64,000 nucleotides of DNA. Origin: an uncultured Gemmatimonadaceae bacterium (GTDB lineage: Bacteria; Latescibacterota; UBA2968; UBA8231). Position numbers and translations under genes: made by a program. The stretch spans positions 7,649 through 71,648 of the forward strand of contig CAYNZV010000001.1 in assembly GCA_964401715.1 (NCBI GenBank), in the 5' to 3' direction. The notes beneath the pieces are model-generated. The model had not been told where the DNA came from, searched no databases, and saw only the letters and a program-made list of their open reading frames with translations. Positions within the stretch are counted from its first letter, which is position 1. Each line of letters starts with the position of its first letter. Shown piece after piece: positions 21,484 to 56,039 of the stretch.

Positions 21484-21491
21484 GGGCAACC

Positions 21492-37452: not shown

Positions 37453-37989
37453 TCATTTTTTGTCCCATCGCCGGCAGACTACACTGCCACTTCCTCCACG
37501 CTCGTCACAGTCGCGCAACGCCTTTACACACAACAATCCTTGCCAGATCTCTTCAACGCCGACTTTCGGTTCGAGATTCTCCCACCTAACAGATCCCTCA
37601 CAAAACATATGTCCCTCGTAGTGGGATTCGAACGGACATTCCGCGGCCGTATTCGCGAGCTTCGAGGGTGGGTCATCACCGACAATAAGCACCTCGAACT
37701 GTGGGTCGGAAATAATCCTCTTACCGCTGGGTGCGTGCTCACTGGCTGAGTAGGTTGCGCCACGGCACACCAATCGGCCGTCTTCTTCTTGTACTGAGCC
37801 CAGCAAATGCTTCGGGGAAACCTCCAAAGGACCGGTCATGCGACAAATGGCACCGGCACCGGAATTTTCGCCAGTCGGCACAAACGCGTGTCCCGGTAAT
37901 TCGCCCTGAAAGGGCACCCACGCTTGTCCTTGGGCAACAGCCCCCAGGCCCATCAAAGATAGCATCAGCAAAACCAAACTGAATCTCAC
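37453..37989 (-). CDS. Small secreted cysteine-rich hypothetical protein (one DM9/DUF3421-like stretch, tentative)
   Basis: GTG 37989 is preceded by GGGAGG at about 7 nt and gives MRFSLVLLMLSLMGLGAVAQG, a signal peptide. The mature part has 7 Cys, and W.P..G.LP..AF...ICR...G...C.......FEVL is reminiscent of a DM9 repeat. Confidence 0.45.
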   Translation of the reverse strand: MRFSLVLLMLSLMGLGAVAQGQAWVPFQGELPGHAFVPTGENSGAGAICRMTGPLEVSPKHLLGSVQEEDGRLVCRGATYSASEHAPSGKRIISDPQFEVLIVGDDPPSKLANTAAECPFESHYEGHMFCEGSVRWENLEPKVGVEEIWQGLLCVKALRDCDERGGSGSVVCRRWDKK

Positions 37990-38200
37990 GACCAAGCCTC
38001 CCGGTTTCGGATGAAGCCCAATTGAATTACGTCGATTCGATTTCAACGTAAGGAAATCAACTCCCAATACAAAGGCACGTGTTTGCCACCGCGGGTTTGT
38101 TCCGTGCAAACTGTTTTAGTTATAGTATATACGTTACAGGGTAGTATGAGGTTGGATTGCGGTTTGGTACAGTCGATTTTTGTTGCAACGAGGGCAAAGC

Positions 38201-41173
38201 GTGATAGGATCGGTGCGTACTAACCAACTGGAACGACCACATTGTGGCCTACTAGTCGCACTGGCCGTCTGGGCTGGCTCTGCCATAGGCAGTGATCTTC
38301 CCCTCGAAGATGTGGCCGCACAACGGCCGTTTCTGCGTTGGCAGCGTCCCACGTATACCAACTATGCGTTACAGCATTACCAGAATTATCCCAACCACAC
38401 CTTTCCTTATTGGGATGTACCTCAGTCCCGCTTAGATCCTCTCGGCAACCATCTCATCAACGGCTACAGTCTCTATGACTGGAGCGAGGTACGCACCGAT
38501 GGGCTCGAGTATGGCAGCTCGATTTTCAAACAATCGGATGGGACCAGTCTCACCTGGATCAACGTGTTCGATTACGTCGTGGCGGGCCACGACGGATACG
38601 GCGACTGGGGCTATCAGCTGATTGTTGGCGACGCGCTGCCAGCACGTTTTACGCCACTGACCTTGTCGAAGGTCAACTTCAACGGCATGCGGTTCGACCT
38701 GTCGACGAAGCATCTGAAATTCACCGGGGTTGCCTCGCGACAGGAACGGCCCAAAGACGATATCAGGACCTATAGCGGCGCGTTTTCACCGTTGGTCCAC
38801 TACGCGGATGATTCGAATTTGCTGTTGGGGACACGGGCGCAAGCGGATGTAGGCGGTTTGCATCTGGGTTTAAACTGGGTCAACCAGCATGTTTACCAGA
38901 GCACGCGTACCACGGGCAACAGTCTCAAGGGGCGATTGAAGCCGGACCAGCCGCTGATGGACTGGATCGTCGTGCGTTTTCGCGATGATTCTCCGGAGGA
39001 CGGGGTGGGTGGCGCGGCGGTGCAGGACCTGCAGCTGGTGATCAACGATGAGGCGCGACCGGATTTGGTGCCGCAGGTGATCAGCCACCTCGGCGAGCCG
39101 CCGATCCAGGTGGGATTCGTCTCGGCCCTTACCGGGGCGTTTACTCCTTTGGCTTACGACCTGTTCACCGCTTCTGAGGCCAGCACCCCCTACTTCAACG
39201 AATACTACTACCGCGGTCGTGATTTTCCGTTATTTGCGGATTATCTGGCGCGGTTGGATCACGCTGCCGGTATCGATGTGCGCAAGCAGGCGAATATCCC
39301 GGGGTTGGAGGCGCTGTACGAGTTGGAATCACCGCAGCAGCTGCTGCAGGCGGACGGAGAGACACAGATTGTGTTTCTCTTCGACATTTCCCGCGAGGCT
39401 GACGTGCGCTCGGTGGTGGTGGAAGCGACGTTGGGGAACGATTACCTGGTGGATGTGGCGATGCTGTATACGAAGTCAACCACGGCTGCTTTTTACGCCG
39501 ATCGTTTCTCGGGCACCTACTATCAGACGGTGAAGCGCGCCAAGGGCAATGTGCGGGATTTTTCCAATCTGCGCCGGGTGCGATTCCAGGTGGGAGAAAA
39601 CACCGGTAATTTCGTTTATGGTGCGGACGCTCACCTGGTGCTCAAGCGTCTGGAGATTTCTGCCGAGTATGCACGCTCGAGCGTGTATTCGCGCTATCCC
39701 GCTCGTGTTGATGGGGGGGCGGCGTTTGATGAGGCGCCGCGTTTTGCCGATCGCGGGGGGGCGTATTTCGTCAATGCGGTGCGGCGTTTTGATCGCGGCC
39801 TGGTAGGTGCCGAGCTGTTTTCCATCGCACCGGATTACCAGACCGAGATGCGCTCCTTTCTGCACCCCGAATCGAGTTTTTGGCTGAGTCACCTGGACGG
39901 GGTGCTCAACAGCACCATGTACTGGCAGACGGTGGATGACAACGATGACGGCGATCGTTATCCCGATATCAAATACGGCAACGCTCCGGGTTTACCGCGG
40001 GATCGCGTTGGCACCGATCTCAATGGTGTTTTTGTGAATCAGGATACCGACAACGACGGTGCTCCGGATACCAACCGCAATCTGAATCGTTTGCCGGACT
40101 ACGAGGAGCCGTTTTTGATGTTTGATGTGGAGCCCAGCAGTTACGTATACGGGCTGGATCGCAACAACAACGATGAGCCGGACCAGCGTGAAGATGACGC
40201 CGAGGTAGACTACCCGTATGAGCATGACGAGCGTGGTTACCACCTTTTTGGCCAGTGGCAGCTGACGCCTCACTGGTCGGTAGCGGCAGGTCGCTATGAC
40301 ATCGAGGAGATCGCCGGCAACGGCGGCAATCGGGCGATATACGGGTTATTGCGTTATCAGCGTCAGGGGGAAGGCCAGCTCAGGCGGATGTTTTTCGAGA
40401 GCAGCATGCGCCGGGTGGCGGACGACATCGCCGATGAGATTATGGTGTTCGATGACGATGCGGGGCCGCGGGATGTACGTTTTGGGAGTCGCGGCATTGC
40501 TTACAGCCGACCGGTGCAACAAGGTTTTGGGTTGCCGGTGTATATGAAGGTGGAGTTTTTGCCCGATCAGTTGTTTTACCGGGACAGTGTGGTGAGCGAC
40601 ACCTATGTGGAGGGGCGGATGATGCCGTGGTCGTCGTTGGAACTGGTGCAGAAGCTGCGCGGTCGTTTCAACTGGCAGCAGGGGGGGCAGCGGCACGGGA
40701 TATTCCAGCGCCAGCGGCGGGTGGATTTCTGGACCTCGGTGAGTCGTGTCCAGTATGTGTGGCATTGGAGGCAGTTGACGGTGACTTCGCAGTATAAGCT
40801 GATGCTGTCGCGGTTGATCGATCAGGAGCGCAATGTGCGGTTGCGCTCGGAGCTGCGTTCGATTCCGATTTTGCGGATGGAGTATCCGCTGCTGGCGCGA
40901 ACGCAGCTGCAGGTGGGCATTCAGGGCGTAGGCCCGTTGCCGTATCGGCGCCTCGACGACACTTCGCAGTACAACAGCTTCGAGCAGCGCACCTCGTTTA
41001 TCTCGCTGATCAACCGGTCGCGTTATTTTGGTTACGACCTCATAACCACAATGGGGATCAACGCCAACAAGATCGAACACGATTCTGCGTTTCTCGACGA
41101 CCGCGATTTCGATTTGCGCACCTTCTTCATGAGGGTGCTGGTCGGATTCACTGAATTCGGAAGACTAATCTGA
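38201..41173 (+). CDS. LSP-C: large secreted paralog, mature region identical to LSP-D
   Basis: The ORF opens at TTG 38180. GTG 38201 with GAGGG 7 nt upstream is plausible. Signal-like CGLLVALAVWAGSAIG. From RPFLRWQRPTYTNYAL to ...VGFTEFGR the protein is identical to that of 48252..51215. The ends differ (..GRLI-TGA versus ..GRPI-TAA). Confidence 0.85.
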   Translation: MIGSVRTNQLERPHCGLLVALAVWAGSAIGSDLPLEDVAAQRPFLRWQRPTYTNYALQHYQNYPNHTFPYWDVPQSRLDPLGNHLINGYSLYDWSEVRTDGLEYGSSIFKQSDGTSLTWINVFDYVVAGHDGYGDWGYQLIVGDALPARFTPLTLSKVNFNGMRFDLSTKHLKFTGVASRQERPKDDIRTYSGAFSPLVHYADDSNLLLGTRAQADVGGLHLGLNWVNQHVYQSTRTTGNSLKGRLKPDQPLMDWIVVRFRDDSPEDGVGGAAVQDLQLVINDEARPDLVPQVISHLGEPPIQVGFVSALTGAFTPLAYDLFTASEASTPYFNEYYYRGRDFPLFADYLARLDHAAGIDVRKQANIPGLEALYELESPQQLLQADGETQIVFLFDISREADVRSVVVEATLGNDYLVDVAMLYTKSTTAAFYADRFSGTYYQTVKRAKGNVRDFSNLRRVRFQVGENTGNFVYGADAHLVLKRLEISAEYARSSVYSRYPARVDGGAAFDEAPRFADRGGAYFVNAVRRFDRGLVGAELFSIAPDYQTEMRSFLHPESSFWLSHLDGVLNSTMYWQTVDDNDDGDRYPDIKYGNAPGLPRDRVGTDLNGVFVNQDTDNDGAPDTNRNLNRLPDYEEPFLMFDVEPSSYVYGLDRNNNDEPDQREDDAEVDYPYEHDERGYHLFGQWQLTPHWSVAAGRYDIEEIAGNGGNRAIYGLLRYQRQGEGQLRRMFFESSMRRVADDIADEIMVFDDDAGPRDVRFGSRGIAYSRPVQQGFGLPVYMKVEFLPDQLFYRDSVVSDTYVEGRMMPWSSLELVQKLRGRFNWQQGGQRHGIFQRQRRVDFWTSVSRVQYVWHWRQLTVTSQYKLMLSRLIDQERNVRLRSELRSIPILRMEYPLLARTQLQVGIQGVGPLPYRRLDDTSQYNSFEQRTSFISLINRSRYFGYDLITTMGINANKIEHDSAFLDDRDFDLRTFFMRVLVGFTEFGRLI
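38324..41165 (+). repeat. Copy 1 of a 2,842-bp direct repeat (partner 48366..51207)
   Basis: Every six-frame ORF in the segment has an identical twin at a constant offset of +10,042 (for example 38432..38713 = 48474..48755 and 40346..41080 = 50388..51122). Line-by-line comparison of the sampled stretches shows no mismatch. First mismatches flank the block at 38323/48365 and 41166/51208. Confidence 0.9.
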
Positions 41174-41306
41174 CGCAGGATGTTAGCGCCACCATGGGGA
41201 CTTGGCAGGGAGCCGAAGCCGGCAACCGAGCCCTTCCCCATAATCGCACACCGCCTTCGCAATAGATGAGTAATCGCGACAGTCCCCTTTCCATCCCAAA
41301 AACAAT

Positions 41307-41336
41307 AAGGGGGTAGATTTTGCAATCTACCCCCTT
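41307..41336 (-). terminator. Intrinsic terminator hairpin between convergent genes
   Basis: AAGGGGGTAGAT-tttgca-ATCTACCCCCTT, a 12-bp perfect stem. On the minus-strand transcript it is followed by AUUGUUUUUGG. Sits 28 nt downstream of the stop of 41364..43328. Confidence 0.75.
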
Positions 41337-41363
41337 ACGCTCAAACGGCTAAGCCGGTCGAGT

Positions 41364-43328
41364 TTACTTCAGTAAGGTCATCGCCTGGGTGGCGGAGAAA
41401 TCGCCAGCTTCCATGCGGTAGAAGTAAACGCCACTCGACACTGGTTTGCCATGTTGGTCCCGAGCATCCCATGTCGACTTGTAGGCACCCGCGTTCAGCT
41501 GATCGTCGACCAGAGTCGCAACCTGCTGCCCGGCGGTGTTGAAAATGCTGATCTTCACGTCGCCGTCCACCGGCACGCTGAAGTCGATGGTAGTTTCAGG
41601 ATTGAACGGGTTGGGATACGCTTCGCCCAGTTCATAGCTGTCCGGTATTGCGGCACTGGCGTCAGCCTCAACAGCTGTAACACCGGCGCCCAGACGACCG
41701 ACGGCCAGATCGAAAGGCACGTGGAACATTTGCTGGAAACCACCAATATCCGAGGATTCACGAGCCGGATTTGGTCCGTTAACCGACAAATCCCAGTTAC
41801 CGCTCACGTAGATGCCATCGAACGGACCTTCGCGCCGATCTGGACCGATCCACTGTCCGTTCACGCGGCCCTGATTCTCGTCCACCCAGGAAATATGGGT
41901 AGCAAGAGAGGCCTTAAACGGACCCATCTTGGTGTGGTCCAGGAACAGCCGCAAGACGCCCGAACCGTCGCGCCCCAGCGCCGAATAGGAATTGCCAAAC
42001 TGATTGTGGCGCGGGCTGTAAACGGCAATATGGCCGGTGCGGTCATTGGTTATGCGGATGGACAACTGGAACGAACCTTCAGCAGCACCGCCCGTAAGGC
42101 CTAGTTGGGCAGCACGTTCGGCGGAAAACTGGTCAGAATAGAGATCGCCAGGACCGTTGTACCAGATGACGTTACCGTCCCAGTCCAGCTTGAGGATCGA
42201 GGTCGACCTCCACCCGCAGAGCCACAGACCCGTGTCATCGGCGGACACCGAAGAGGGGCCACCACCGCTGAAGGTCGCGTTGTTATTGTCGTCCACACGC
42301 CAGCGCAGGAAAAACTCACGGACGTCGTAAGACCTGAGGTACTCACCGGAGTTCTTGTCCCAGACGTTCAGGCCGCTGGCCGGCGGATCAGCGCCGGACC
42401 AATTGGGCGAGATCAGCTCGTCATTGTAGACCAGGATCTGCATGGCGTTTTCGGTCTCGGGACCTGGCACTTTAGCGAAACCGTTGTCGCCAAATTCCGT
42501 CACCCTCTCAAGGCTCTTGGCGGCGGCATTTTTGCGCGATTTGTAGAGACCGGTGAATTCGTTGTTCCAGTTAGAGTTGACCAGATAGATGATGTTGGGA
42601 TCATCGGGGTCAGGTTTCGGGCCGCCGCGGCTGCCGGATTCCTCCACAACCTCCCACACACTGGAGGCATCCCACTGCTCATACGCGTTGGGATTGGCGA
42701 TGTAGTCGGTACCCAAGTTGAAGACGTGCACGTTCTGGGGGCCATCACCATTGTTGGAGTTGTATCGGCCCTTCCGATGCGTCCACACCGTCTTGTCACG
42801 CATGTCGATCTCGTGATCGTCGAAATCGCTGTTGCCACCATACATCAACGTCGCGGGATCTAGAAGGTTGAAGGCGATGACGTCGAACGAATAGCTGCCA
42901 GCGCCAGCCGGGTTGCCTTCCCAATCGCGCCCATTCCACGTGATGGTGTTGTTGCCGGCTTCGAAGTCACCACCACCTCCAGGCACTACATTGACGAACT
43001 TGTCCTGGGGCTTCATGCGCTGTACGGCGCCGTTAGGACCCGACGGACCAGTCTCATTCGAGCCCACTTCGTAAATTGCAACCCAGACGCGGGCTCGCTG
43101 ATTCATGCTGAAGTTGATACCGACTGGGCCACTTCCGTTCCAGGACACATCGTTGGTCCGGACGCGTAGTGGATTCGGGTCACCAGAACGGTCAGGTACA
43201 CGTACTTGGGAATCAAAATTTTCGTCTACTGATGCGGCTTTGGGATAAGTTTCAGCTATCACCGTGCCGGCAACTAGTAAACAAAGCGCTGAAATTGTTA
43301 GCAGAATTTTTGGTATCTGCATTTCCAA
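41364..43328 (-). CDS. Secreted protein with a T9SS-type (FlgD-Ig-like) C-terminal sorting domain; body of unknown function
   Basis: Signal peptide MEMQIPKILLTISALCLLVAGTVIA. An N-proximal FlgD-Ig-like stretch (GNNTITWNGRDWEGNPAGAGSYSFDVIAFN). The C-terminus AYPNPFNPETTIDFSVPVDGDVKISIFNTAGQQVATLVDDQLNAGAYKSTWDARDQHGKPVSSGVYFYRMEAGDFSATQAMTLLK is a canonical T9SS type-A C-terminal domain. Confidence 0.85.
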   Translation of the reverse strand: MEMQIPKILLTISALCLLVAGTVIAETYPKAASVDENFDSQVRVPDRSGDPNPLRVRTNDVSWNGSGPVGINFSMNQRARVWVAIYEVGSNETGPSGPNGAVQRMKPQDKFVNVVPGGGGDFEAGNNTITWNGRDWEGNPAGAGSYSFDVIAFNLLDPATLMYGGNSDFDDHEIDMRDKTVWTHRKGRYNSNNGDGPQNVHVFNLGTDYIANPNAYEQWDASSVWEVVEESGSRGGPKPDPDDPNIIYLVNSNWNNEFTGLYKSRKNAAAKSLERVTEFGDNGFAKVPGPETENAMQILVYNDELISPNWSGADPPASGLNVWDKNSGEYLRSYDVREFFLRWRVDDNNNATFSGGGPSSVSADDTGLWLCGWRSTSILKLDWDGNVIWYNGPGDLYSDQFSAERAAQLGLTGGAAEGSFQLSIRITNDRTGHIAVYSPRHNQFGNSYSALGRDGSGVLRLFLDHTKMGPFKASLATHISWVDENQGRVNGQWIGPDRREGPFDGIYVSGNWDLSVNGPNPARESSDIGGFQQMFHVPFDLAVGRLGAGVTAVEADASAAIPDSYELGEAYPNPFNPETTIDFSVPVDGDVKISIFNTAGQQVATLVDDQLNAGAYKSTWDARDQHGKPVSSGVYFYRMEAGDFSATQAMTLLK

Positions 43329-43560
43329 TTTGCTCCTTGGTTCACAGTGAGATAAGCGATGGTACTCGAATTTACATGTTCTAAACTTCCGTAAATCTAA
43401 GACCTCCTTTCCTCAATATTTCCTCTTGCAAACCTTAATCGGCAGGATTGAAGTAACGATACGAATACAAATATAACCGCTTAATATGGCGAAACAAGAT
43501 TTTTTTTCATCCAGAATGTATAATACATATATAAACATTGTATAATTTTTATAGTCTAAA
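43329..43560 (-). promoter_or_regulatory. Strongly AT-rich putative promoter/leader region of the T9SS-cargo gene
   Basis: Composition drops sharply relative to the flanks. Contains, read on the minus strand, TATATTTG (43468..43475), which fits the TAnnTTTG -7 element of Bacteroidetes-type promoters. Also a 13-bp palindrome ATGTATAATACAT (43516..43528), two TGTATAAT octamers 22 bp apart, and a T8 run. Confidence 0.4.
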
Positions 43561-43650
43561 TGAAGCACCTTGAGAGAGGATCCTGCTGCCCGGGCGCCTT
43601 ACTGGAATCGAATGGGTTGCCGTTCTCAACTCCCAAGCCCAACGGCTGCG

Positions 43651-45486
43651 CTATTGGCGAGACAGGCCCGATCCCCTTCTCAGGGTGATCACTTGGTCAG
43701 CGTCGAAATCGCCGAACAATTCGAGCTCGCCGTCGGCCCAGCGAACTTGGACATCCAAAACCTGGTCGATGTCGCCCAAACCGACATGGATGCGAGGATC
43801 ATTGGCGGCCTGGTAGCTGTAGGCCGACTTTACGTTCCGCCTTTTCGACACGCGCCCTGCACTTAAGCGGATTGTGGCTTCCATTGCATCGGCGCCATGC
43901 CGATTGAGCACCCTGAAGCTGATCCAATGGCGCTGTTTTGCAACCACGTTGTGCAACAGGTGAACCGGTGCGTCCCGATTGACCACCAGCACGTCCATGC
44001 CGCCGTCGTTGTCGACATCGCCAAAGGCGGCTCCGCGACTGGTTGCTACCAGCACCTGCGCTGTTCCGGCAGAGCTTGTTTCCTGGAAACGGGCCCCTGG
44101 TACGCCTCTGAACAAGGAGTTGGGTTGGGCAAAACGATCCCCTTTCGGGGCGTTGTTCAGAGCGATTCGGCCGTTGGCGGTGTAGAGATCCAACCATCCA
44201 TCGTTGTCGAAGTCGATGAGAGCAACACCGAAGCGCGTTAGTAGGTCGCTGCCGACTGCCAAACCGGAAGTGGCGGTGGCATCGACAAAAAAGTCACCTT
44301 CGTTACGGAAGTAGGAGTTGGTTTCTTCGCGTAGATTGACCACCAATAGATCAAGGGTATTGTTGTCGTCTACGTCTATGACATCGACGCCCATGCCCGC
44401 TTTGGCCATGCCACTTTCGTCCAGGGCGCAGCCGCGTAGCAGCGCCTCGTCCGTAAAAGTTCCGTCGCCACCGTTGACCCAAAGCTGATTCTTGGACCCG
44501 TCATTGGCTACGAAGATGTCGCTCCATCCGTCGGAATCGAAGTCCCCGCCGACAACCCCCAGACCATATCCATATGCCTCGTGCAATCCGGCCTCGTAGG
44601 AGACTTCGGCAAAGGTTCCGTTCCCATCATTGCGGTATAGTATATCCGGAGCCTGAGCCTTGTAGACTGGCGGATAGCAGTAATCGGCCTCCCCAACTGG
44701 AGAAAAACAGGGTCGCTCCAGCGCCACTGACCAGTGCATGTAGCGCGTAGCGAAGAGGTCGAGATCGCCATCGTTATCATAGTCCGTGAACATGGTGCTG
44801 GCGCTCCAGGCGTTATCGCCAACTCCGGCCACAGCTGAGACGTCCTGAAAGCGACCACTTCCTTCGTTTCGCAGTAACACGTTGGGTCCAACGTTGGTGA
44901 TGTAAAGATCGGCATCGCCGTCGTTGTCCCAATCGCCGGTAGCGACGCCCATGCCGTAGCCCTGGTCATCGCTACCGCTGTCCTCGGTGACGTTTTCGAA
45001 GTAACCGGAGCCGTCATTGCGAAATAGTTGGTTGGCGGGTCGCAGACTTTGTGCCGCAGTTAACGATCCACCTTGCAGCAGATAAGCGTCCAGGTCACCA
45101 TCGTCGTCCATGTCGAACAGGGCCGCTCCTCCCCCCATGATCTCCGGCATATAGTAGTGCTCCTCGTGTCCCGAATCGAAGCGGAAATCGATGCCACGCT
45201 TGGCCGCCTCTTCTGCGAACCAGATCTCTTCGTGTTGCCGCTTTTCAGCTGTTCGCCCATCCCGGGTGTCGGTTGTCAACGCGGCGTGTTCGTGCTCACC
45301 GCATCCTCCCAGAGCCACCAAGTTGATACACAAGGTTACAATCCCGAGCGTGAACCGACGCCAAGGCAACCACCGCTGCGTCGTTGCGCTGAACTGTCTG
45401 GTTGTTTTCTGGACCGTGCGTGCGGACGAGTGAGGTAGAGATCGTGGGGTCAATTTGTCGCTCGATTCCATTACAGGGATCGTCAC
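43651..45486 (-). CDS. ASPIC/UnbV plus FG-GAP/VCBS repeat protein (CRTAC1-type), probable lipoprotein, copy 2
   Basis: Lipobox-like LVALGGCGE after a hydrophobic segment. Repeated GD(W/F)D.DG..D(L/I).(V/I).N motifs with LLRNEGSGRFQDVS. C-terminal UnbV_ASPIC-like block (SAYSYQAANDPRIHVGLGDIDQVLDVQVRWADG). The GTG start overlaps the TPR gene's stop (GTGA). Confidence 0.85.
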   Translation of the reverse strand: MTIPVMESSDKLTPRSLPHSSARTVQKTTRQFSATTQRWLPWRRFTLGIVTLCINLVALGGCGEHEHAALTTDTRDGRTAEKRQHEEIWFAEEAAKRGIDFRFDSGHEEHYYMPEIMGGGAALFDMDDDGDLDAYLLQGGSLTAAQSLRPANQLFRNDGSGYFENVTEDSGSDDQGYGMGVATGDWDNDGDADLYITNVGPNVLLRNEGSGRFQDVSAVAGVGDNAWSASTMFTDYDNDGDLDLFATRYMHWSVALERPCFSPVGEADYCYPPVYKAQAPDILYRNDGNGTFAEVSYEAGLHEAYGYGLGVVGGDFDSDGWSDIFVANDGSKNQLWVNGGDGTFTDEALLRGCALDESGMAKAGMGVDVIDVDDNNTLDLLVVNLREETNSYFRNEGDFFVDATATSGLAVGSDLLTRFGVALIDFDNDGWLDLYTANGRIALNNAPKGDRFAQPNSLFRGVPGARFQETSSAGTAQVLVATSRGAAFGDVDNDGGMDVLVVNRDAPVHLLHNVVAKQRHWISFRVLNRHGADAMEATIRLSAGRVSKRRNVKSAYSYQAANDPRIHVGLGDIDQVLDVQVRWADGELELFGDFDADQVITLRRGSGLSRQ

Positions 45487-46910
45487 TCTTGCGCGCCTTC
45501 GTTACCCAACTCGCGTATTTGTGCCAACATGGCTTGAATCTTAGTCGAAGAGGGGATAAGAGCCTGCGCGGCCAGTAGGGCGGTCTCCGCTTCTGCCAAC
45601 TGTCTAAGGTTCTTGGCGGCCACGGCGGTGCCCAGATGCGCACGTACCAAGGTCGAATCCAGCTCCACGGCCTGCTGGAAGCTGGCGAGGCCGTCTGCCC
45701 ACTGTTCGAGCTCGAGCCGGGCGAGTCCCAAGCCGACGTGGAGGGCAGCGTCCCTCGGCTCCAACTCGATCGCCTGCTGGTAGGCTCCCGCCGCCTCCGG
45801 GTGATTGCCGACGCTGGTCAAGATTTCCCCTTTCTGCTGAATGGCACCACCCAATCGCGGGTCGAGTGCGATGACCCGATCCAGGTGCTGCACAGCGCGT
45901 GCCGGTTGCTTCAGCTTGCGATAAACCGAAGCGGCGTTGAGGTGCAGGTAAGCATTATGAGGATGATTCCGCAGGGCACTGTTGAACAACCGCAAAGCTT
46001 CTCGGAACCGCTTTTGAGATACGTACACGCCAGCGAGGTTGTTCAATACGGTAAGATCGTCAGGATGGTTCCGTTGTAGTTCTTCCAGCAGGCCGGTTGC
46101 GTCGTGCATGTCGCCGTCTTCGATCATTGCCACGGCTTCGAAAATCTTGTGAGGCAAACCTGCCCGATACGGCTTGAGTTCCTCATCCCACAGGTCGCGA
46201 TACTGCGGCTGACGCTCCAGTTCTTGATCCAGGTGCTTGCGGGCCTCTTCCAAACGCCCCAGGCGACGGTATGCAGTGCCAAGAAGCAAATGAGAGTATG
46301 GGCGATCCCTGCTTTCTTTGGGCATCTCTTCCAGCACTGCCAGCGCGCGTCTCGGCTCTTCTTTCTGCAGCCAGACACGCGCCAGGCCCCACGGTCCTGC
46401 GGCGTCCTGGGCATCAACAGCCATGGCGTGCTCAAACTGTTGTTGGGCTCGTTCCAGCTCGTTCTGTTCCAGATAGATATATCCAAGTCGCCAGTGCGCG
46501 GGTCCATACGTCGCTCCCAAGGCGATCACTTTGTTTACCGCTTCCACCGCACCAGGCCGATCTCCCAGCTGCATCCGGATCCGCGCCAGGCGATACCACC
46601 ATTTCGGCGGCGCATCATCTAGGCTAAGTGCAGTCCGGTAACATGCTAAGGCGAGAGAATCGAGATCGTTTGCTTCGTACACATAACCGAGAGCCATCCA
46701 CGAATGCGGGTTGTCGGGATCGGCTTCGATCCTGGCTATGGTTTTTTCTACCAGGTCCATCACCATTGGGTCTTTACCGGCGAGAACCGCAGGTAGGCTT
46801 GGGGCTTTTGGACTGGGAGGCAGAATCAGGCGCCACAGGGCGATCATCAGGCCAACTGCGACAATGCCTGCCGCAATTACTTTAACGGAGGGGACTTTAG
46901 AGAATGGCAT
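45483..46910 (-). CDS. Membrane-anchored tetratricopeptide-repeat (TPR) protein
   Basis: From ATG 46910: MPFSKVPSVKVIAAGIVAVGLMIALW (TM anchor), followed by about 10 TPR-like 34-aa units (W..LG.VY......A...Y..AL.LDP...). The ORF opens further upstream at 46985. Confidence 0.8.
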   Translation of the reverse strand: MPFSKVPSVKVIAAGIVAVGLMIALWRLILPPSPKAPSLPAVLAGKDPMVMDLVEKTIARIEADPDNPHSWMALGYVYEANDLDSLALACYRTALSLDDAPPKWWYRLARIRMQLGDRPGAVEAVNKVIALGATYGPAHWRLGYIYLEQNELERAQQQFEHAMAVDAQDAAGPWGLARVWLQKEEPRRALAVLEEMPKESRDRPYSHLLLGTAYRRLGRLEEARKHLDQELERQPQYRDLWDEELKPYRAGLPHKIFEAVAMIEDGDMHDATGLLEELQRNHPDDLTVLNNLAGVYVSQKRFREALRLFNSALRNHPHNAYLHLNAASVYRKLKQPARAVQHLDRVIALDPRLGGAIQQKGEILTSVGNHPEAAGAYQQAIELEPRDAALHVGLGLARLELEQWADGLASFQQAVELDSTLVRAHLGTAVAAKNLRQLAEAETALLAAQALIPSSTKIQAMLAQIRELGNEGAQE

Positions 46911-47015
46911 CTTGCGAGTTACGCGACCGAGTTTCCGGTTGCAGCGGTTATCAGCAGGATACCGACTCGACAAGATGCCTGCCACTAAACAAGGGCAGTG
47001 CTGGACGTGCTGCCG

Positions 47016-48059
47016 TCAATCGCGCCAGAGCACCACGCCCATGTGATAGCGCTGGTGGTTCGGGATGCGTTGACAGTAGTAGGCCGTCAAAATCGTGCCA
47101 TTTTCCAGCTGCACGCTGGAGGGGTAGCCACCGTCGGTCCCGGTCGGACTGGTGTTCGACTGGTATACATCGGTCTTGAACAGCACCCTGGGATCGTCCC
47201 AGGTCACCCCTTCGTCGCGGCTCACCATGGCGCAGACGCCAAGCATGCCCCGCAAGCGCACACCATAGGTGAGCAGGATCGAACGGTCCTGCAGCATAAG
47301 TAGATGGGCGGGCATGTGGCGTGCCGGGGTCACCGGCCCGCGACAGGTCCAGGTTTCGCCACCGTCGTCGGAGGCAAAGATCTCGGTATCCGCCGTTCGC
47401 GCGGTACGACTGGCCGCCAACATCTTGCCATCGTCGAGCACCAACAGATCGGTCTCATTGTAGCGATCAGGGCCAATGAGTCGGGGATTGCCCCAGGTGC
47501 GCCCGTCGTCATCGCTGAAGTAGATCCAGGCACCGTCTTGAGTTTCGTCCTCGAGATGGCCGGCAGCGGATGAATAACAGGAAACGGCGAGCCGCTTGCC
47601 CGGCAATTGCACGATATCTCCGAACGGCACGGCGTAGCTGACACCGGGAGGGTATTCGAACTTTCCCAACTCTGTGGTCCATGACTGGCAGCCGTCTTGG
47701 CTACGACAGACCGCAGCTTCCTGGTTTCCCATTTCATCTTCGGTCCGCTCCCGGTCGAGCAACTCTCCCCGCGGAGGTGCGAACCTGCGGCCGCTGACCA
47801 GCACCACGTAGGCGCCCTCGTGGGTCAGTCCGGCCGCCAGATCTCCCCGGGTGCGGGCGGTTTCGTGATGTGCCGGTACGCTGGCGAAAGACCAGAGCCT
47901 GCCGCCATCGCGACTGATCCAGCACTCTGAGGAGCCTTCCCAGAGTTGGTGACAGGGCTCGCCAAAGATTGCAGCCACGATGCTGCCATCGGGCATCTGG
48001 GTGAGATTCGGCCAGGCACACTTGTTGTCAATTGCCACGTAGCGCTCGAGTATGTCCAT
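47016..48059 (-). CDS. BNR/Asp-box repeat sialidase-like beta-propeller, leaderless (copy 2)
   Basis: Asp boxes SRDGGRLW, SQDGCQSW, SDDDGRTW, SDDGGETW, SRDEGVTW. ATG 48059 (MDILERYVAIDN) is preceded by AAAGGA. The listed ORF start 48152 is probably too far upstream. Confidence 0.75.
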   Translation of the reverse strand: MDILERYVAIDNKCAWPNLTQMPDGSIVAAIFGEPCHQLWEGSSECWISRDGGRLWSFASVPAHHETARTRGDLAAGLTHEGAYVVLVSGRRFAPPRGELLDRERTEDEMGNQEAAVCRSQDGCQSWTTELGKFEYPPGVSYAVPFGDIVQLPGKRLAVSCYSSAAGHLEDETQDGAWIYFSDDDGRTWGNPRLIGPDRYNETDLLVLDDGKMLAASRTARTADTEIFASDDGGETWTCRGPVTPARHMPAHLLMLQDRSILLTYGVRLRGMLGVCAMVSRDEGVTWDDPRVLFKTDVYQSNTSPTGTDGGYPSSVQLENGTILTAYYCQRIPNHQRYHMGVVLWRD

Positions 48060-48251
48060 GAATATCCTTTCGTTGAAGTGACAATATACCTGTCGATAAC
48101 AGCATATACCACAACAATATTTTGGTAACCAGTCTCGAAGTTGTGCAATCATTAATTGCTTGTTTATGGCAAATTACTTGCGTATTCATATCTGCATCGA
48201 CAGGTGAGGTGGCTGACAATCGGACATTGGATGGCAACACCTGGAGGATTC

Positions 48252-51215
48252 ATGAAGATCGAGCGGTGGTGCTGCACAGGAAAGCGTCTGTTGGTAACAC
48301 TCGCTGTGTGTGTGATCGGCGAGGCAAAAGCCAGTAATTCGTTTGTCCATGAGTTGCACGAGGCGCGGCCGTTTCTGCGTTGGCAGCGTCCCACGTATAC
48401 CAACTATGCGTTACAGCATTACCAGAATTATCCCAACCACACCTTTCCTTATTGGGATGTACCTCAGTCCCGCTTAGATCCTCTCGGCAACCATCTCATC
48501 AACGGCTACAGTCTCTATGACTGGAGCGAGGTACGCACCGATGGGCTCGAGTATGGCAGCTCGATTTTCAAACAATCGGATGGGACCAGTCTCACCTGGA
48601 TCAACGTGTTCGATTACGTCGTGGCGGGCCACGACGGATACGGCGACTGGGGCTATCAGCTGATTGTTGGCGACGCGCTGCCAGCACGTTTTACGCCACT
48701 GACCTTGTCGAAGGTCAACTTCAACGGCATGCGGTTCGACCTGTCGACGAAGCATCTGAAATTCACCGGGGTTGCCTCGCGACAGGAACGGCCCAAAGAC
48801 GATATCAGGACCTATAGCGGCGCGTTTTCACCGTTGGTCCACTACGCGGATGATTCGAATTTGCTGTTGGGGACACGGGCGCAAGCGGATGTAGGCGGTT
48901 TGCATCTGGGTTTAAACTGGGTCAACCAGCATGTTTACCAGAGCACGCGTACCACGGGCAACAGTCTCAAGGGGCGATTGAAGCCGGACCAGCCGCTGAT
49001 GGACTGGATCGTCGTGCGTTTTCGCGATGATTCTCCGGAGGACGGGGTGGGTGGCGCGGCGGTGCAGGACCTGCAGCTGGTGATCAACGATGAGGCGCGA
49101 CCGGATTTGGTGCCGCAGGTGATCAGCCACCTCGGCGAGCCGCCGATCCAGGTGGGATTCGTCTCGGCCCTTACCGGGGCGTTTACTCCTTTGGCTTACG
49201 ACCTGTTCACCGCTTCTGAGGCCAGCACCCCCTACTTCAACGAATACTACTACCGCGGTCGTGATTTTCCGTTATTTGCGGATTATCTGGCGCGGTTGGA
49301 TCACGCTGCCGGTATCGATGTGCGCAAGCAGGCGAATATCCCGGGGTTGGAGGCGCTGTACGAGTTGGAATCACCGCAGCAGCTGCTGCAGGCGGACGGA
49401 GAGACACAGATTGTGTTTCTCTTCGACATTTCCCGCGAGGCTGACGTGCGCTCGGTGGTGGTGGAAGCGACGTTGGGGAACGATTACCTGGTGGATGTGG
49501 CGATGCTGTATACGAAGTCAACCACGGCTGCTTTTTACGCCGATCGTTTCTCGGGCACCTACTATCAGACGGTGAAGCGCGCCAAGGGCAATGTGCGGGA
49601 TTTTTCCAATCTGCGCCGGGTGCGATTCCAGGTGGGAGAAAACACCGGTAATTTCGTTTATGGTGCGGACGCTCACCTGGTGCTCAAGCGTCTGGAGATT
49701 TCTGCCGAGTATGCACGCTCGAGCGTGTATTCGCGCTATCCCGCTCGTGTTGATGGGGGGGCGGCGTTTGATGAGGCGCCGCGTTTTGCCGATCGCGGGG
49801 GGGCGTATTTCGTCAATGCGGTGCGGCGTTTTGATCGCGGCCTGGTAGGTGCCGAGCTGTTTTCCATCGCACCGGATTACCAGACCGAGATGCGCTCCTT
49901 TCTGCACCCCGAATCGAGTTTTTGGCTGAGTCACCTGGACGGGGTGCTCAACAGCACCATGTACTGGCAGACGGTGGATGACAACGATGACGGCGATCGT
50001 TATCCCGATATCAAATACGGCAACGCTCCGGGTTTACCGCGGGATCGCGTTGGCACCGATCTCAATGGTGTTTTTGTGAATCAGGATACCGACAACGACG
50101 GTGCTCCGGATACCAACCGCAATCTGAATCGTTTGCCGGACTACGAGGAGCCGTTTTTGATGTTTGATGTGGAGCCCAGCAGTTACGTATACGGGCTGGA
50201 TCGCAACAACAACGATGAGCCGGACCAGCGTGAAGATGACGCCGAGGTAGACTACCCGTATGAGCATGACGAGCGTGGTTACCACCTTTTTGGCCAGTGG
50301 CAGCTGACGCCTCACTGGTCGGTAGCGGCAGGTCGCTATGACATCGAGGAGATCGCCGGCAACGGCGGCAATCGGGCGATATACGGGTTATTGCGTTATC
50401 AGCGTCAGGGGGAAGGCCAGCTCAGGCGGATGTTTTTCGAGAGCAGCATGCGCCGGGTGGCGGACGACATCGCCGATGAGATTATGGTGTTCGATGACGA
50501 TGCGGGGCCGCGGGATGTACGTTTTGGGAGTCGCGGCATTGCTTACAGCCGACCGGTGCAACAAGGTTTTGGGTTGCCGGTGTATATGAAGGTGGAGTTT
50601 TTGCCCGATCAGTTGTTTTACCGGGACAGTGTGGTGAGCGACACCTATGTGGAGGGGCGGATGATGCCGTGGTCGTCGTTGGAACTGGTGCAGAAGCTGC
50701 GCGGTCGTTTCAACTGGCAGCAGGGGGGGCAGCGGCACGGGATATTCCAGCGCCAGCGGCGGGTGGATTTCTGGACCTCGGTGAGTCGTGTCCAGTATGT
50801 GTGGCATTGGAGGCAGTTGACGGTGACTTCGCAGTATAAGCTGATGCTGTCGCGGTTGATCGATCAGGAGCGCAATGTGCGGTTGCGCTCGGAGCTGCGT
50901 TCGATTCCGATTTTGCGGATGGAGTATCCGCTGCTGGCGCGAACGCAGCTGCAGGTGGGCATTCAGGGCGTAGGCCCGTTGCCGTATCGGCGCCTCGACG
51001 ACACTTCGCAGTACAACAGCTTCGAGCAGCGCACCTCGTTTATCTCGCTGATCAACCGGTCGCGTTATTTTGGTTACGACCTCATAACCACAATGGGGAT
51101 CAACGCCAACAAGATCGAACACGATTCTGCGTTTCTCGACGACCGCGATTTCGATTTGCGCACCTTCTTCATGAGGGTGCTGGTCGGATTCACTGAATTC
51201 GGAAGACCAATCTAA
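48252..51215 (+). CDS. LSP-D: large secreted paralog, mature region identical to LSP-C
   Basis: ATG 48252 is preceded by GGAGGA and gives MKIERWCCTGKRLLVTLAVCVIGEAKA, a signal peptide. The listed ORF start 48156 is probably too far upstream. The rest is as for LSP-C. Confidence 0.85.
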   Translation: MKIERWCCTGKRLLVTLAVCVIGEAKASNSFVHELHEARPFLRWQRPTYTNYALQHYQNYPNHTFPYWDVPQSRLDPLGNHLINGYSLYDWSEVRTDGLEYGSSIFKQSDGTSLTWINVFDYVVAGHDGYGDWGYQLIVGDALPARFTPLTLSKVNFNGMRFDLSTKHLKFTGVASRQERPKDDIRTYSGAFSPLVHYADDSNLLLGTRAQADVGGLHLGLNWVNQHVYQSTRTTGNSLKGRLKPDQPLMDWIVVRFRDDSPEDGVGGAAVQDLQLVINDEARPDLVPQVISHLGEPPIQVGFVSALTGAFTPLAYDLFTASEASTPYFNEYYYRGRDFPLFADYLARLDHAAGIDVRKQANIPGLEALYELESPQQLLQADGETQIVFLFDISREADVRSVVVEATLGNDYLVDVAMLYTKSTTAAFYADRFSGTYYQTVKRAKGNVRDFSNLRRVRFQVGENTGNFVYGADAHLVLKRLEISAEYARSSVYSRYPARVDGGAAFDEAPRFADRGGAYFVNAVRRFDRGLVGAELFSIAPDYQTEMRSFLHPESSFWLSHLDGVLNSTMYWQTVDDNDDGDRYPDIKYGNAPGLPRDRVGTDLNGVFVNQDTDNDGAPDTNRNLNRLPDYEEPFLMFDVEPSSYVYGLDRNNNDEPDQREDDAEVDYPYEHDERGYHLFGQWQLTPHWSVAAGRYDIEEIAGNGGNRAIYGLLRYQRQGEGQLRRMFFESSMRRVADDIADEIMVFDDDAGPRDVRFGSRGIAYSRPVQQGFGLPVYMKVEFLPDQLFYRDSVVSDTYVEGRMMPWSSLELVQKLRGRFNWQQGGQRHGIFQRQRRVDFWTSVSRVQYVWHWRQLTVTSQYKLMLSRLIDQERNVRLRSELRSIPILRMEYPLLARTQLQVGIQGVGPLPYRRLDDTSQYNSFEQRTSFISLINRSRYFGYDLITTMGINANKIEHDSAFLDDRDFDLRTFFMRVLVGFTEFGRPI
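48366..51207 (+). repeat. Copy 2 of the 2,842-bp direct repeat (partner 38324..41165)
   Basis: See copy 1. Constant offset of 10,042 bp, and both main-frame and off-frame ORF translations are identical. Confidence 0.9.
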
Positions 51216-55164: not shown

Positions 55165-55950
55165 ACCCTCCTGGGCGTTGGGATTGACGAAAATGGAGGG
55201 GCTGGAAGCGGCAAACCGTTGCGTGATTACCCACCCTTCCGCAACATCGGCATCGAGCGAAATGAATCCGTCTCGCCGCAGCACGGCCAAACAGATTGCG
55301 GCCTTGTCTGGCCGATAGTGCTTCCGGTTTCGCGCGGCCAGCCGATATCCGTTATGCCGTCATAATAGAACAAGAGTTCGTTGTCGCGAAAAACCGGACT
55401 CGACGGCGGAAACATCACCGTTAGGGGTCATAGGCACCGCTTTCGGTTGGGGACAGGCTGATGGAATCCTTGCGGTCGCCCAATCTCTACTAAGCGACCA
55501 TAGCGCGACTGCGCATCAGCAGTGGGATTTTGAAAGCGATGTTGTCGCTGGGGTCGCCAACAATGGTGTACACCGCCATGTTCGACTTTCCGACCCGCCA
55601 CCAGTGCAAGCCGTCGTAGTTGTCCCAGACCCAGGAAACGCTCCTCGGCCCAGAGTTTTCGGTCAACAGAAACCTGAAGACGCTCTGCTCCGGATCCCAG
55701 CTTGGGGCGTTGCGGATTTGGAAATGTCATGCCCCCGGGTTGAGGTGATCGGGCCGGATCACCGCCCCTTCCTTGGAAGGGGCGGTGCATAGTGCGCTTC
55801 AAGCTGTTCGTTGCCGCCAGATCTACATCATATAGGAACAGCTGCCGCTGCCCGAAGGGCACGACCAAAGTCACGCTTTTCTGGGCGGTCGTGAACGAGG
55901 CCGAGCCTACGACCAAACTGAGCTGTATCACCACGCTTACCGAATGGGGC
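55165..55950 (-). pseudogene. Multi-frameshifted, 3'-truncated remnant of another beta-propeller glycoside-hydrolase-like gene
   Basis: Minus-strand fragments appear in different frames: ...NYDGLHWWR..., PVFRDNELLFYYDGI, then AVLRRDGFISLDADVAEGWVITQRFAASSPSIFVNPNAQEGDV. The last is the 'LRRDGF.SLDA...G...T' transition into the C-terminal sandwich seen in this enzyme class. The frame then runs into the 3' end of the plus-strand gene, with no intact ORF. The 5' limit is approximate. Confidence 0.45.
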
Positions 55951-56039
55951 GCTTTACCCATCTCGCACATTTCTACGTTTTTGTTTATACCGTAAGTTTC
56001 GTACCGAAAAACTATACAAGCCAAACCAGTGAGGTGGTG

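What the first reader, a model, noticed from the sequence alone, without database searches (positions are those of the whole stretch)
38324..51207. Apparently perfect 2,842-bp direct repeat confined to the mature coding region of LSP-C and LSP-D, flanking a 7.2-kb four-gene cassette
**Seen directly.** 38324..41165 and 48366..51207 match at a constant offset of 10,042 bp. All main-frame and shadow-frame ORF translations in the two blocks are identical. The stretches I compared base by base show no mismatch.

Identity starts just after the two unrelated signal-peptide regions (..EDVAAQ|RPFLRW versus ..ELHEA|RPFLRW). It ends 8 nt before the stop codons (GRLI-TGA versus GRPI-TAA). Promoters, RBS and leaders are unique to each copy.

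**Inference.** Boundaries that coincide with the mature protein, rather than with a whole gene plus flanks, favour recent gene conversion between paralogs over a plain segmental duplication. A very recent duplication followed by 5' replacement is also possible.

The repeats bracket 41166..48365, which holds the T9SS cargo, CRTAC1, TPR and BNR genes. That cassette could therefore be excised or amplified by homologous recombination.

**Caveat.** An assembly artefact, such as a duplicated or chimeric join in a metagenome bin, must be excluded.
Basis: partly seen in the sequence, partly recalled or inferred. Interest (0 to 1): 0.75.

Follow-up and report, generated by a model that had tools for sequence, protein, structure and literature searches.

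The report
Twin outer-membrane genes homogenised by gene conversion
Two neighbouring genes for a large, uncharacterised outer-membrane barrel protein in an uncultured Latescibacterota bacterium have been made identical over 2.8 kb by gene conversion, which is a well-known process and an ordinary finding.

Summary
Window 38324-41165 and 48366-51207 are identical over 2,842 bp with no mismatch, and similarity falls to background at both ends.

The repeat covers nearly all of two ~990-aa genes, LSP-C and LSP-D. Each keeps its own start codon, ribosome-binding site and signal peptide. The family has no Pfam or NCBIfam model, and its predicted fold is a giant outer-membrane beta-barrel.

The organism is a Candidatus Latescibacterota. 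Relatives assembled into very long contigs have the same order: CRTAC1 / small gene / LSP-C' / T9SS cargo / CRTAC1 / TPR / BNR / LSP-D' / 529-aa gene. There the two copies are only ~85% identical and mosaic.

Genes in the C position group with the D-type copy of their own genome, not with each other.

Two other assemblies of the same species show the same repeat with the same left boundary. Their strain differences are present in both copies.

These are probably short-read metaSPAdes scaffolds. The exact 100% identity may therefore be made by the assembler, and only reads can settle it. I found no evidence that the cassette is excised or amplified.

The parts
38324..41165 (+). Repeat copy 1 (2,842 bp), inside LSP-C
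   Evidence: Identical to 48366-51207 with 0 mismatches.
48366..51207 (+). Repeat copy 2 (2,842 bp), inside LSP-D
   Evidence: Identical to 38324-41165 with 0 mismatches.
38201..41173 (+). LSP-C gene. It has a GTG start with GAGGG upstream and encodes 990 aa (P0001). Its leader MIGSVRTNQLERPHCGLLVALAVWAGSAIG is unique to this copy, and the protein ends GRLI-TGA.
   Evidence: There is no Pfam or NCBIfam hit.
48252..51215 (+). LSP-D gene. It has an ATG start with GGAGGA upstream and encodes 987 aa (P0121). Its leader MKIERWCCTGKRLLVTLAVCVIGEAKA is unique to this copy, and the protein ends GRPI-TAA.
   Evidence: The AlphaFold2 model is almost all beta (mean pLDDT 72). The best Foldseek matches are giant outer-membrane barrels: MtrB, SlpA, LptD, TonB-dependent transporters and SprA.
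41364..43328 (-). T9SS cargo gene, with a C-terminal Por_Secre_tail/FlgD_ig sorting domain. It converges on LSP-C.
   Evidence: Orthologues sit at the same place in L005, L025, L001, L017 and L026.
41305..41338 (-). Terminator-like hairpin with a 15-bp stem, downstream of the T9SS cargo gene and in the unique DNA between LSP-C and that gene
   Evidence: a consensus scan only.
43651..45486 (-). CRTAC1-like FG-GAP/ASPIC (UnbV) gene
45483..46985 (-). TPR-repeat gene
47016..48152 (-). BNR/sialidase-like beta-propeller gene, divergent from LSP-D
   Evidence: The window aligns continuously with L005 from this gene through the LSP-D leader.
35531..37363 (+). Second CRTAC1-like gene. It marks the upstream side of the LSP-C position.
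   Evidence: Its orthologue P0127 lies at the same place in L027 and in L009.
37453..38109 (-). Small ORF of about 180-218 aa with no family match, directly upstream of LSP-C. It also marks the position.
   Evidence: Orthologues lie next to LSP-C' in L027 (a 192-aa gene) and next to the T9SS cargo gene in L001, L017 and L026, which lack LSP-C.
32287..35208 (-). LSP-B, a paralogue about 57% identical in protein and about 60% in DNA to C and D
   Evidence: (inverted repeats I1 and I2).
28344..31283 (-). LSP-A, a paralogue about 45% identical in protein, with a sub-threshold SlpA_C hit
53569..55158 (+). 529-aa gene of unknown function. In all relatives it directly follows LSP-D.
   Evidence: It has no family match.

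Best explanation
LSP-C and LSP-D are two old, separately promoted paralogues. They encode a ~950-residue outer-membrane beta-barrel protein of a family that is expanded in Latescibacterota.

In this lineage one copy has overwritten the other by non-reciprocal homologous recombination (gene conversion), probably RecA-dependent. The copies lie 10 kb apart in direct orientation. The conversion may have happened more than once.

The converted tract runs to the limits of usable homology. It starts at the first conserved block after the divergent signal-peptide region (RPxLRW...) and stops in the last conserved block (...GFTEFGRPI), 8 nt before the stop codon. Promoters, ribosome-binding sites, leaders and 3' flanks therefore stay copy-specific.

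The result is two expression units that make almost the same mature protein.

Shown: the identity and its boundaries, the age of both gene positions, the grouping of copies by genome rather than by position, and mosaic partial conversion in a relative.

Inferred: the recombination pathway, the direction of transfer, recurrence within strains, and any selective benefit.
For: 1. The two blocks match exactly over 2,842 bp, with unrelated leaders and 3' flanks.

2. The same gene order recurs in relatives assembled into long contigs. L005 (463-kb contig) has LSP-C' / T9SS cargo / CRTAC1 / TPR / BNR / LSP-D' / 529-aa gene. L025/L027 add CRTAC1 and the small ORF upstream of C'. L028 is a third lineage with an LSP in the C position.

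3. Flanking genes place the window lineage outside the others. It is 68-78% identical in DNA to all of them, whereas L005 versus L001/L017 is 82.5-89%.

4. The window copies are 100% identical to each other and about 77% to both L005 copies. In the neighbour-joining tree, C-position genes are not monophyletic. L005_C and L025_C group with their own genome's D' and with L008.

5. In L005, C' versus D' is 85% identical overall, with 150-nt windows in the mature region ranging from 72% to 95%. C' shares 250 sites only with its own genome's D', against 137 only with the L001 orthologue (p = 1e-8). This shows that conversion operates at this locus.

6. Three assemblies of the species carry both copies: the window's 188,906-bp NCBI contig, L003 from SAMN05991682 and L004 from SAMN05991696. 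All have the same left boundary. All 50 (L003) or 17 (L004) differences from the window inside the repeat are present in both copies.

7. The family consensus is strongly conserved at both tract ends.
Against: All three assemblies of this species are probably short-read metaSPAdes scaffolds. The record names fit the Ocean Microbiomics Database pipeline, which uses metaSPAdes; the link from name to pipeline is my inference. Such an assembler can collapse near-identical repeats, pop small bubbles and walk the loop twice. Zero mismatches, and strain variants that are 'shared by both copies', could then be true by construction.

The repeat differs between assemblies 4-8 times more than the flanks do. 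That excess could instead be hidden differences between C and D.

No residual C-type signal is left in the window repeat, so the sequence alone cannot exclude a newer gain of the C copy.

The similarity between the window C leader and the L005 C' leader (59%) is not specific. An unlinked paralogue, L007, is 57% identical.
Confidence: 0.78

Rival explanations
1. Assembly artefact in the strong sense. The genome has only one chromosomal copy, and the second is produced by a wrong path through the assembly graph. The true structure would be U1-R-U2 plus a 10-kb circle R-M (U1 and U2 are the unique flanks, R the repeat, M the spacer), or a chimeric join between a diverged C gene and D.
For: The assemblies are probably short-read metaSPAdes scaffolds (with my inference from the record names). 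A U1-R-M-R-U2 path and a U1-R-U2 path plus an R-M circle use the same graph edges. No independent assembly of the species was found in JGI metagenomes.
Against: Three assemblies from different samples give the same structure and boundaries. Relatives on contigs of 0.46 Mb (L005) and 40 kb (L025/L027) have the same two-copy order with both positions filled.

A chimeric path between 85%-identical genes would switch inside shared k-mers. It would leave C-specific differences near the ends. Here identity runs right up to the unrelated leader and to 8 nt before the stop.
Confidence: 0.07
2. The two copies are real and recently converted but not truly identical. They differ at a few SNPs or short patches that the assembler merged. 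The 'strain differences' inside the repeat are then partly differences between C and D. This rival concerns the degree of identity, not the mechanism, and it overlaps the best explanation.
For: Differences between assemblies are 0.60-1.78% inside the repeat against 0.05-0.43% in the flanks, taking the segments with enough aligned sequence. They lie in five tight patches (nt 88-111, 168-189, 850-867, 1668-1677, 2142-2144). Each patch is short enough to form a poppable bubble (my knowledge of metaSPAdes). Pairs in long-read relatives are never identical; they are 85-87%.
Against: Divergence in the repeat and in the flanks rises together: L003 exceeds L004 in both. Strain differences predict this, and random picks between C and D alleles do not. 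There are only two comparisons, so this is weak.
Confidence: 0.35
3. A recent independent gain. The mature-coding part of LSP-D was newly copied into the C position in this lineage, and separately in the L005/L025 and L028 lineages. No ancestral C gene was converted.
For: In the tree every C-position gene sits with, or equidistant from, D-type genes of its own clade. The window repeat carries no C-type signature. L001, L017 and L026 have no LSP in that position.
Against: It needs at least two or three parallel insertions at the same intergenic position, between the small ORF and the 3' end of the T9SS cargo gene. Each would have to land in frame behind a working start codon and signal peptide. 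Copying only the mature region behind an existing leader is, in effect, conversion of an existing gene. The mosaic pattern in L005 shows that exchange happens.
Confidence: 0.07
4. The repeats belong to a mobile or programmed element, such as a composite transposon, an integrative cassette, or a silent-donor antigenic-variation system of the pilE/pilS type.
For: Direct repeats bracket a four-gene cassette. The strain-variable patches fall in predicted loops of a surface protein.
Against: No transposase, integrase or recombinase matched among the ORFs scanned, which are those of at least 200 aa from 472 to 55158 plus 58580-61822. No tRNA was found anywhere in the window. The repeats are complete expressed-type genes with starts, ribosome-binding sites and signal peptides, not promoterless donors. 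The cassette is a conserved chromosomal neighbourhood in relatives.
Confidence: 0.02

Closest known systems
Concerted evolution and gene conversion between outer-membrane-protein paralogues of Helicobacter pylori (babA/babB, sabA/sabB/hopQ, homA/homB)
   Same: These are paralogous outer-membrane-protein genes at separate loci in one chromosome. Part of each gene is similar within a strain but differs between strains. This is attributed to RecA-dependent recombination within the genome. Other parts of the genes stay locus-specific (PMC3960876, read).
   Different: Here the tract covers almost the whole coding region rather than the 3' segment. The copies are 10 kb apart in direct orientation, and the identity as assembled is complete. 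The protein family, phylum and free-living marine lifestyle are unrelated. No phase variation or chimeric switching is seen.
Long-lasting concerted evolution of duplicated prokaryotic genes (survey in PMC6053082; tufA/tufB is the classic case, from my own knowledge)
   Same: Paralogues within a genome are more similar to each other than to orthologues in other species. The pattern recurs across lineages (abstract read). Here it appears in the window lineage and, partially, in the L005/L025 lineage.
   Different: That survey concerns core pathway genes kept the same for gene balance. This pair is an accessory surface protein from a large, fast-evolving family. Homogenisation is lineage-specific: complete here, about 85% in relatives.
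Giant outer-membrane beta-barrels (Deinococcus SlpA, Shewanella MtrB, LptD, SusC and other TonB-dependent transporters, SprA)
   Same: The LSP model is almost all long beta-hairpins, with a signal peptide and a conserved C-terminal block rich in aromatic residues. Every significant Foldseek match is an outer-membrane barrel. Some paralogues give sub-threshold hits to Pfam SlpA_C.
   Different: TM-scores are low (0.12-0.25 on the query). Neither the single sequence nor the family profile matches any PDB sequence. No TonB plug, SLH domain or other defining domain matched, so the resemblance is to a fold class and not to a family.

Membership tests
Concerted evolution by gene conversion between paralogues | Paralogues in one genome are more similar to each other than to their positional orthologues in related genomes | tested here: met
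   Window C versus D is 100% over the repeat. Both are about 77% identical to L005_C and L005_D. L005_C groups with L005_D and L008 of its own genome.
Concerted evolution by gene conversion between paralogues | Both copies predate the speciation, shown by positional orthology on both sides | tested here: met
   D: the alignment runs continuously from the BNR gene through the leader and LSP-D, and the 529-aa gene follows in both. C: the order CRTAC1 / small ORF / LSP-C' / T9SS cargo is seen in L027 and L025, and an LSP fills the position in L028. Three genomes (L001, L017, L026) lack C, which I read as loss.
Concerted evolution by gene conversion between paralogues | The tract is bounded by the limits of homology, and the flanks are not homogenised | tested here: met
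   The leaders are 45% identical and the 3' flanks are unrelated. The tract ends fall in the first and last conserved blocks of the family.
Concerted evolution by gene conversion between paralogues | Mosaic or partial tracts, or statistical evidence of exchange, in an assembly that does not depend on repeat collapse | tested here: met
   In L005, C' versus D' gives 72-95% identity in 150-nt windows of the mature region. Site counts are 250 versus 137, p = 1e-8.
Concerted evolution by gene conversion between paralogues | Physical confirmation that the two copies are identical in one DNA molecule | not testable with these tools
   No reads are available. JGI scans found no further assembly of the species.
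Plain segmental or tandem duplication | The duplicated unit includes gene flanks, and its boundaries are unrelated to gene structure | tested here: not met
   Identity is confined to the coding region, from codon 42 (C) or 39 (D) to 8 nt before the stop. The 7.2-kb spacer is unique.
Assembly artefact (false duplication) | The structure is absent from independent assemblies and from related genomes | tested here: not met
   It is present in three assemblies of the species. The same two-copy order occurs in L005, L025 and L027. Read support for the junctions could not be tested.
Mobile element or programmed variation cassette | A recombinase or transposase, terminal sites, or promoterless donor copies | tested here: not met
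   No such domains matched among the window ORFs scanned. Both copies have a start codon, ribosome-binding site and signal peptide.
Outer-membrane beta-barrel protein (fold class of LSP) | A signal peptide, an all-beta transmembrane barrel, and a conserved C-terminal beta-signal | tested here: inconclusive
   The model is nearly all beta (mean pLDDT 72, pTM 0.70). The top 15 Foldseek hits are all outer-membrane barrels, but TM-scores are 0.25 or lower on the query. The C-terminus ...LVGFTEFGRPI is conserved but does not end in an aromatic residue. I did not count strands on coordinates.
Pfam PF21620 SlpA_C | A score at or above the Pfam gathering threshold (35 bits) | tested here: not met
   LSP-A scores 21.9 bits. 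LSP-B, C and D give no hit.

The most novel reading that the evidence does not exclude
Homogenisation may be recurrent and complete within every strain. In that reading, short divergent patches are imported into surface loops of the barrel from other paralogues or strains, and conversion then spreads them to both copies. The cell would keep two differently regulated genes for one fast-diversifying surface protein. One gene is divergent from the BNR/TPR/CRTAC1/T9SS-cargo operon, and the other sits behind the upstream CRTAC1 unit. This would link concerted evolution with loop diversification, for example under phage or grazer pressure, in a new family of giant barrels.
Probability: 0.2. Interest if true: 0.5.

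Novelty: new member of a known kind. Interest (0 to 1): 0.3.

Why it matters
Concerted evolution of paralogous surface-protein genes is well documented, so the mechanism adds little. The case has three modest uses.

- It is a clean example in an uncultured phylum. The age of both gene positions, a partially converted relative and a fully converted lineage can be lined up side by side.
- It is a practical warning. In short-read metagenome scaffolds, a perfect repeat and variants that appear in both copies can be produced by the assembler, and should not be counted as evidence without reads.
- It draws attention to an uncharacterised family of ~950-residue outer-membrane barrels. Latescibacterota carry it in many copies, next to CRTAC1-like, TPR, T9SS-cargo, BNR, sulfatase and glycosidase-like genes. 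The family may be relevant to how these bacteria take up polymers.

Tried and rejected
- Family searches. Pfam and NCBIfam give nothing for LSP-C or LSP-D, even at E <= 1 in Pfam. PDB sequence searches with the single protein and with the family profile also give nothing.
- Independent assemblies. Two JGI metagenome scans, one by protein pattern and one with an exact 36-mer from the start of the repeat, found no further assembly of this species. An exact look-up of P0001 found no record.
- Direction of conversion and residual C ancestry. Using the window as outgroup, the repeat matches the state found in only one of the three compared genes (L005_C, L005_D, L001_D) in 28-32% of cases, whichever gene that is. 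The test is uninformative.
- Leader orthology. The window C leader is closest to L005_C (59%), but the unlinked paralogue L007 is 57%. The evidence is consistent but not specific.
- Donors for the strain-variable patches. No fetched locus holds a near-identical copy. The alleles only resemble states common in other paralogues.
- Promoters and RNA genes. The promoter scan found fewer sites than in shuffled sequence, and none upstream of C or D. No tRNA or Rfam family was found.
- Sample origin. The BioSample numbers appear in no searchable paper. My recollection that they belong to an open-ocean time series is unverified.
- Cassette excision. Recombination between C and D would delete the cassette and leave a hybrid gene. 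Relatives that lack C (L001, L017, L026) keep the cassette and carry a second T9SS-cargo copy instead, so they are not products of that event.
Full report
**Observation.** Window 38324-41165 and 48366-51207 are both 2,842 nt and identical at every position (family D1).
- To the left the sequences are unrelated.
- To the right, the first mismatch (CTA versus CCA, Leu versus Pro) lies 8 nt before the stop. Five matches follow, then the stops differ (TGA versus TAA), and unrelated DNA follows.
- The window contains no N.
- Base composition of the two blocks is like the rest of the window.

**What the repeat sits in.** It lies inside two ~990-aa genes.
- LSP-C starts at GTG 38201 and is preceded by GAGGG.
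- LSP-D starts at ATG 48252 and is preceded by GGAGGA.
- The repeat begins 41 and 38 codons into the genes, after two unrelated hydrophobic leaders.
- By the -3/-1 rule (my reading, no predictor run) cleavage would fall at AIG|S and AKA|S, 11 residues before the repeat. The mature proteins would then differ in 11 N-terminal residues and one C-terminal residue.
- The spacer 41166-48365 holds a T9SS-sorting-domain protein, a CRTAC1-like FG-GAP/ASPIC protein, a TPR protein and a BNR protein, all on the minus strand.
- Two further paralogues lie upstream: LSP-B (about 57% protein identity) and LSP-A (about 45%).

**The protein.**
- LSP-C and LSP-D match no Pfam or NCBIfam model. LSP-A gives a sub-threshold SlpA_C hit.
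- Neither the sequence nor the family profile matches any PDB chain.
- An AlphaFold2 model built on 45 homologues (mean pLDDT 72, pTM 0.70) is almost entirely long beta-hairpins.
- Its significant Foldseek matches are all large outer-membrane barrels: MtrB, SlpA, LptD, TonB-dependent transporters, OmpG and SprA. TM-scores are low, 0.25 or less on the query.
- I take LSP to be a giant outer-membrane beta-barrel of an undescribed family, at the level of fold class only.
- The family is multi-copy. At least 14 of the listed 90% clusters have a member on one 5.87-Mb contig.
- It has 765 representatives at E <= 0.001 among 1.84 billion 50% clusters.

**Organism and relatives.**
- The closest genomic hits are Candidatus Latescibacterota MAGs, some at chromosome scale.
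- The surrounding window encodes sulfatases, PhoX, BNR proteins, esterases and a glycosidase-like protein. This looks like a polymer-degradation neighbourhood.

**Is the two-copy structure real?**
- The 90% cluster of P0001 holds six sequences from three contigs. These are the window's 188,906-bp NCBI contig and two ENA scaffolds from different BioSamples. Each contig carries both a 990-aa and a 987-aa protein.
- In L003 and L004 the repeat starts at the same base. It is 100% identical internally, apart from the same Leu/Pro codon at the end.
- L005, on a 463-kb contig of a relative about 77% identical in DNA, has the order LSP-C' / T9SS cargo / CRTAC1 / TPR / BNR / LSP-D' / 529-aa gene.
- L025/L027, 94% identical to L005, add the upstream side: CRTAC1 orthologue, a 192-aa orthologue of the small ORF, then LSP-C'.
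- L028 is a third lineage with an LSP in that position.
- The order U1-R-M-R-U2 (U1 and U2 are the unique flanks, R the repeat, M the spacer) is therefore an ancestral chromosomal arrangement, not an invention of the assembler.
- A chimeric path through two 85%-identical genes would not give identity right up to the unrelated leader and to 8 nt before the stop.

**Is it gene conversion?**
- Flanking genes put the window lineage outside the others. It is 68-78% identical in DNA to all of them, whereas L005 versus L001/L017 is 82.5-89%.
- If C and D had diverged freely since before that split, they should now be at most about 75-85% identical. L005_C' and L005_D' are 85.4% identical, and L025 gives 84.6%.
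- The window copies are instead identical to each other and equidistant (about 77%) from both L005 copies.
- In a neighbour-joining tree, genes in the C position are not monophyletic. L005_C and L025_C group with their own genome's D' and with L008.
- Within L005 the pair is mosaic, with 72-95% identity in 150-nt windows of the mature region.
- C' shares 250 sites exclusively with its own genome's D', against 137 with the L001 orthologue (binomial p = 1e-8). The excess is concentrated around nt 900-1350.
- Exchange between the two positions thus occurs in a genome where repeat collapse is not an issue. In the window lineage it has gone to completion.
- The tract ends coincide with the first (RPxLRW...) and last (...GFTEFGRPI) conserved blocks of the family. 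Homology-dependent conversion between diverged paralogues should stop there.
- A segmental duplication would have copied flanks. Three parallel in-frame insertions behind working leaders are far less parsimonious.

**What remains uncertain.**
- The two ENA scaffolds carry names typical of the Ocean Microbiomics Database pipeline. That pipeline assembles single samples with metaSPAdes; the link from name to pipeline is my inference.
- Such an assembler collapses near-identical repeats, pops short bubbles and resolves a simple loop by walking the repeat edge twice (my knowledge of the software).
- 'Zero mismatches', and the fact that all 50 (L003) or 17 (L004) differences from the window appear in both copies, may therefore be true by construction.
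- The repeat differs between assemblies by 0.60-1.78%, against 0.05-0.43% in the flanks. Almost all the excess sits in five dense patches at nt 88-111, 168-189, 850-867, 1668-1677 and 2142-2144.
- These patches change residues in low-confidence loops of the model. Their alleles resemble states common in other paralogues.
- There are two readings. Either they are imported patches that conversion then spread to both copies in each strain, or they are real differences between C and D of which each assembly kept one.
- Without the patches, about 10 isolated differences remain, by my count from the position list. That is about 0.35%, which matches the flanks.
- Either way the copies must be close to identical, and the conversion is recent relative to the 75-85% baseline.

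**Excision or amplification.**
- A 2.8-kb direct repeat 10 kb apart is a good substrate for RecA-mediated deletion or duplication. This is an inference from general knowledge.
- All three assemblies nevertheless show one cassette.
- The relatives that lack LSP-C keep the cassette and have a second T9SS-cargo copy in its place. That is not the product of C x D recombination.
- No recombinase, transposase or tRNA was found in what I scanned.

**Comparison and verdict.**
- The closest known cases are the Helicobacter pylori outer-membrane-protein paralogues (bab, sab, hom). There, parts of the genes evolve in concert through conversion within the genome while other parts stay locus-specific (PMC3960876).
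- Concerted evolution of duplicated prokaryotic genes has also been surveyed more generally (PMC6053082).
- This finding is a new member of that known kind, in a new protein family and phylum.
- Exact identity still needs reads.
- Interest is modest.

Noticed in passing
window 28344-31283(-), 32287-35208(-), 38201-41173(+), 48252-51215(+); loci L001-L028: LSP is an uncharacterised family of ~950-1000-aa predicted giant outer-membrane beta-barrels with no Pfam or NCBIfam model. There are four copies in 23 kb here, at least 14 clusters with a member on one 5.87-Mb Latescibacterota contig, and 765 representatives at E <= 0.001 in 1.84 billion clusters. The genes repeatedly sit next to CRTAC1-like FG-GAP/ASPIC, TPR and T9SS-cargo genes.
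   Followed up: partly
P0121 residues ~570-670 (window ~49960-50260 and ~39920-40220): A strongly conserved acidic segment has many invariant Asp residues in DxDxDG-like motifs (DDNDDGDRYPD, DTDNDGAPDTNRN, DRNNNDEPD). It resembles calcium-binding thrombospondin-type-3 repeats (from memory). It lies between barrel strands and is modelled with low confidence.
   Followed up: no
repeat nt 88-111, 168-189, 850-867, 1668-1677, 2142-2144 (window 38411-38434, 38491-38512, 39173-39190, 39991-40000, 40465-40467, and the same +10042): Differences between strains inside the repeat are dense multi-nucleotide patches that change residues in low-pLDDT loops. The alternative alleles match states seen in other paralogues. 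This suggests short recombination imports, but no donor was found among the fetched loci.
   Followed up: partly
L001 765-6334, L017 855-5197, L026 903-5245: Relatives that lack LSP-C carry two tandem T9SS-cargo copies (85-88% identical) in that position. In L001 an rve/HTH_38 transposase gene lies between them.
   Followed up: partly
window 51305-53497(+): A 730-aa glycosidase-like gene (GHL6, GH42M/ThuA-like) lies between LSP-D and the 529-aa gene in this species only. In L001, L005, L017, L025 and L026 the 529-aa gene directly follows LSP-D.
   Followed up: no
L011 9944-15939, L012 9998-15960: More distant Latescibacterota chromosomes have head-to-tail LSP pairs that are 86-87% identical. 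Each pair is flanked by inverted CRTAC1/TPR units. This may be the same partial homogenisation at another locus.
   Followed up: no
L017 10001-12891; L025 202-3185: The LSP-D orthologue in OZ244235.1 has only a 576-codon open stretch. LSP-C' in the 5x-coverage contig ctg805916 is split into 606 and 395 aa. These could be pseudogenes or long-read indel errors.
   Followed up: no
window 2116-3675, 8826-10232, 18644-20146, 20347-22370: The surrounding region encodes two sulfatases, PhoX, a BNR protein and an esterase or S9 peptidase. This looks like a neighbourhood for degrading sulfated polymers or organic phosphorus, which may hint at the substrates of the LSP barrels.
   Followed up: no
window 14179-14246 and 15445-15512 (in ORF 13561-15645): A 68-nt direct repeat, 72% identical, lies inside a DUF1538 membrane-protein gene. 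It reflects an internal two-domain duplication of that gene.
   Followed up: no
window 55428-56312(-) versus 55944-56903(+): Two long ORFs overlap on opposite strands. Both have about 100% tblastn matches in L004, and the plus-strand ORF has a 78% match in L009. Which one is the real gene was not resolved.
   Followed up: no
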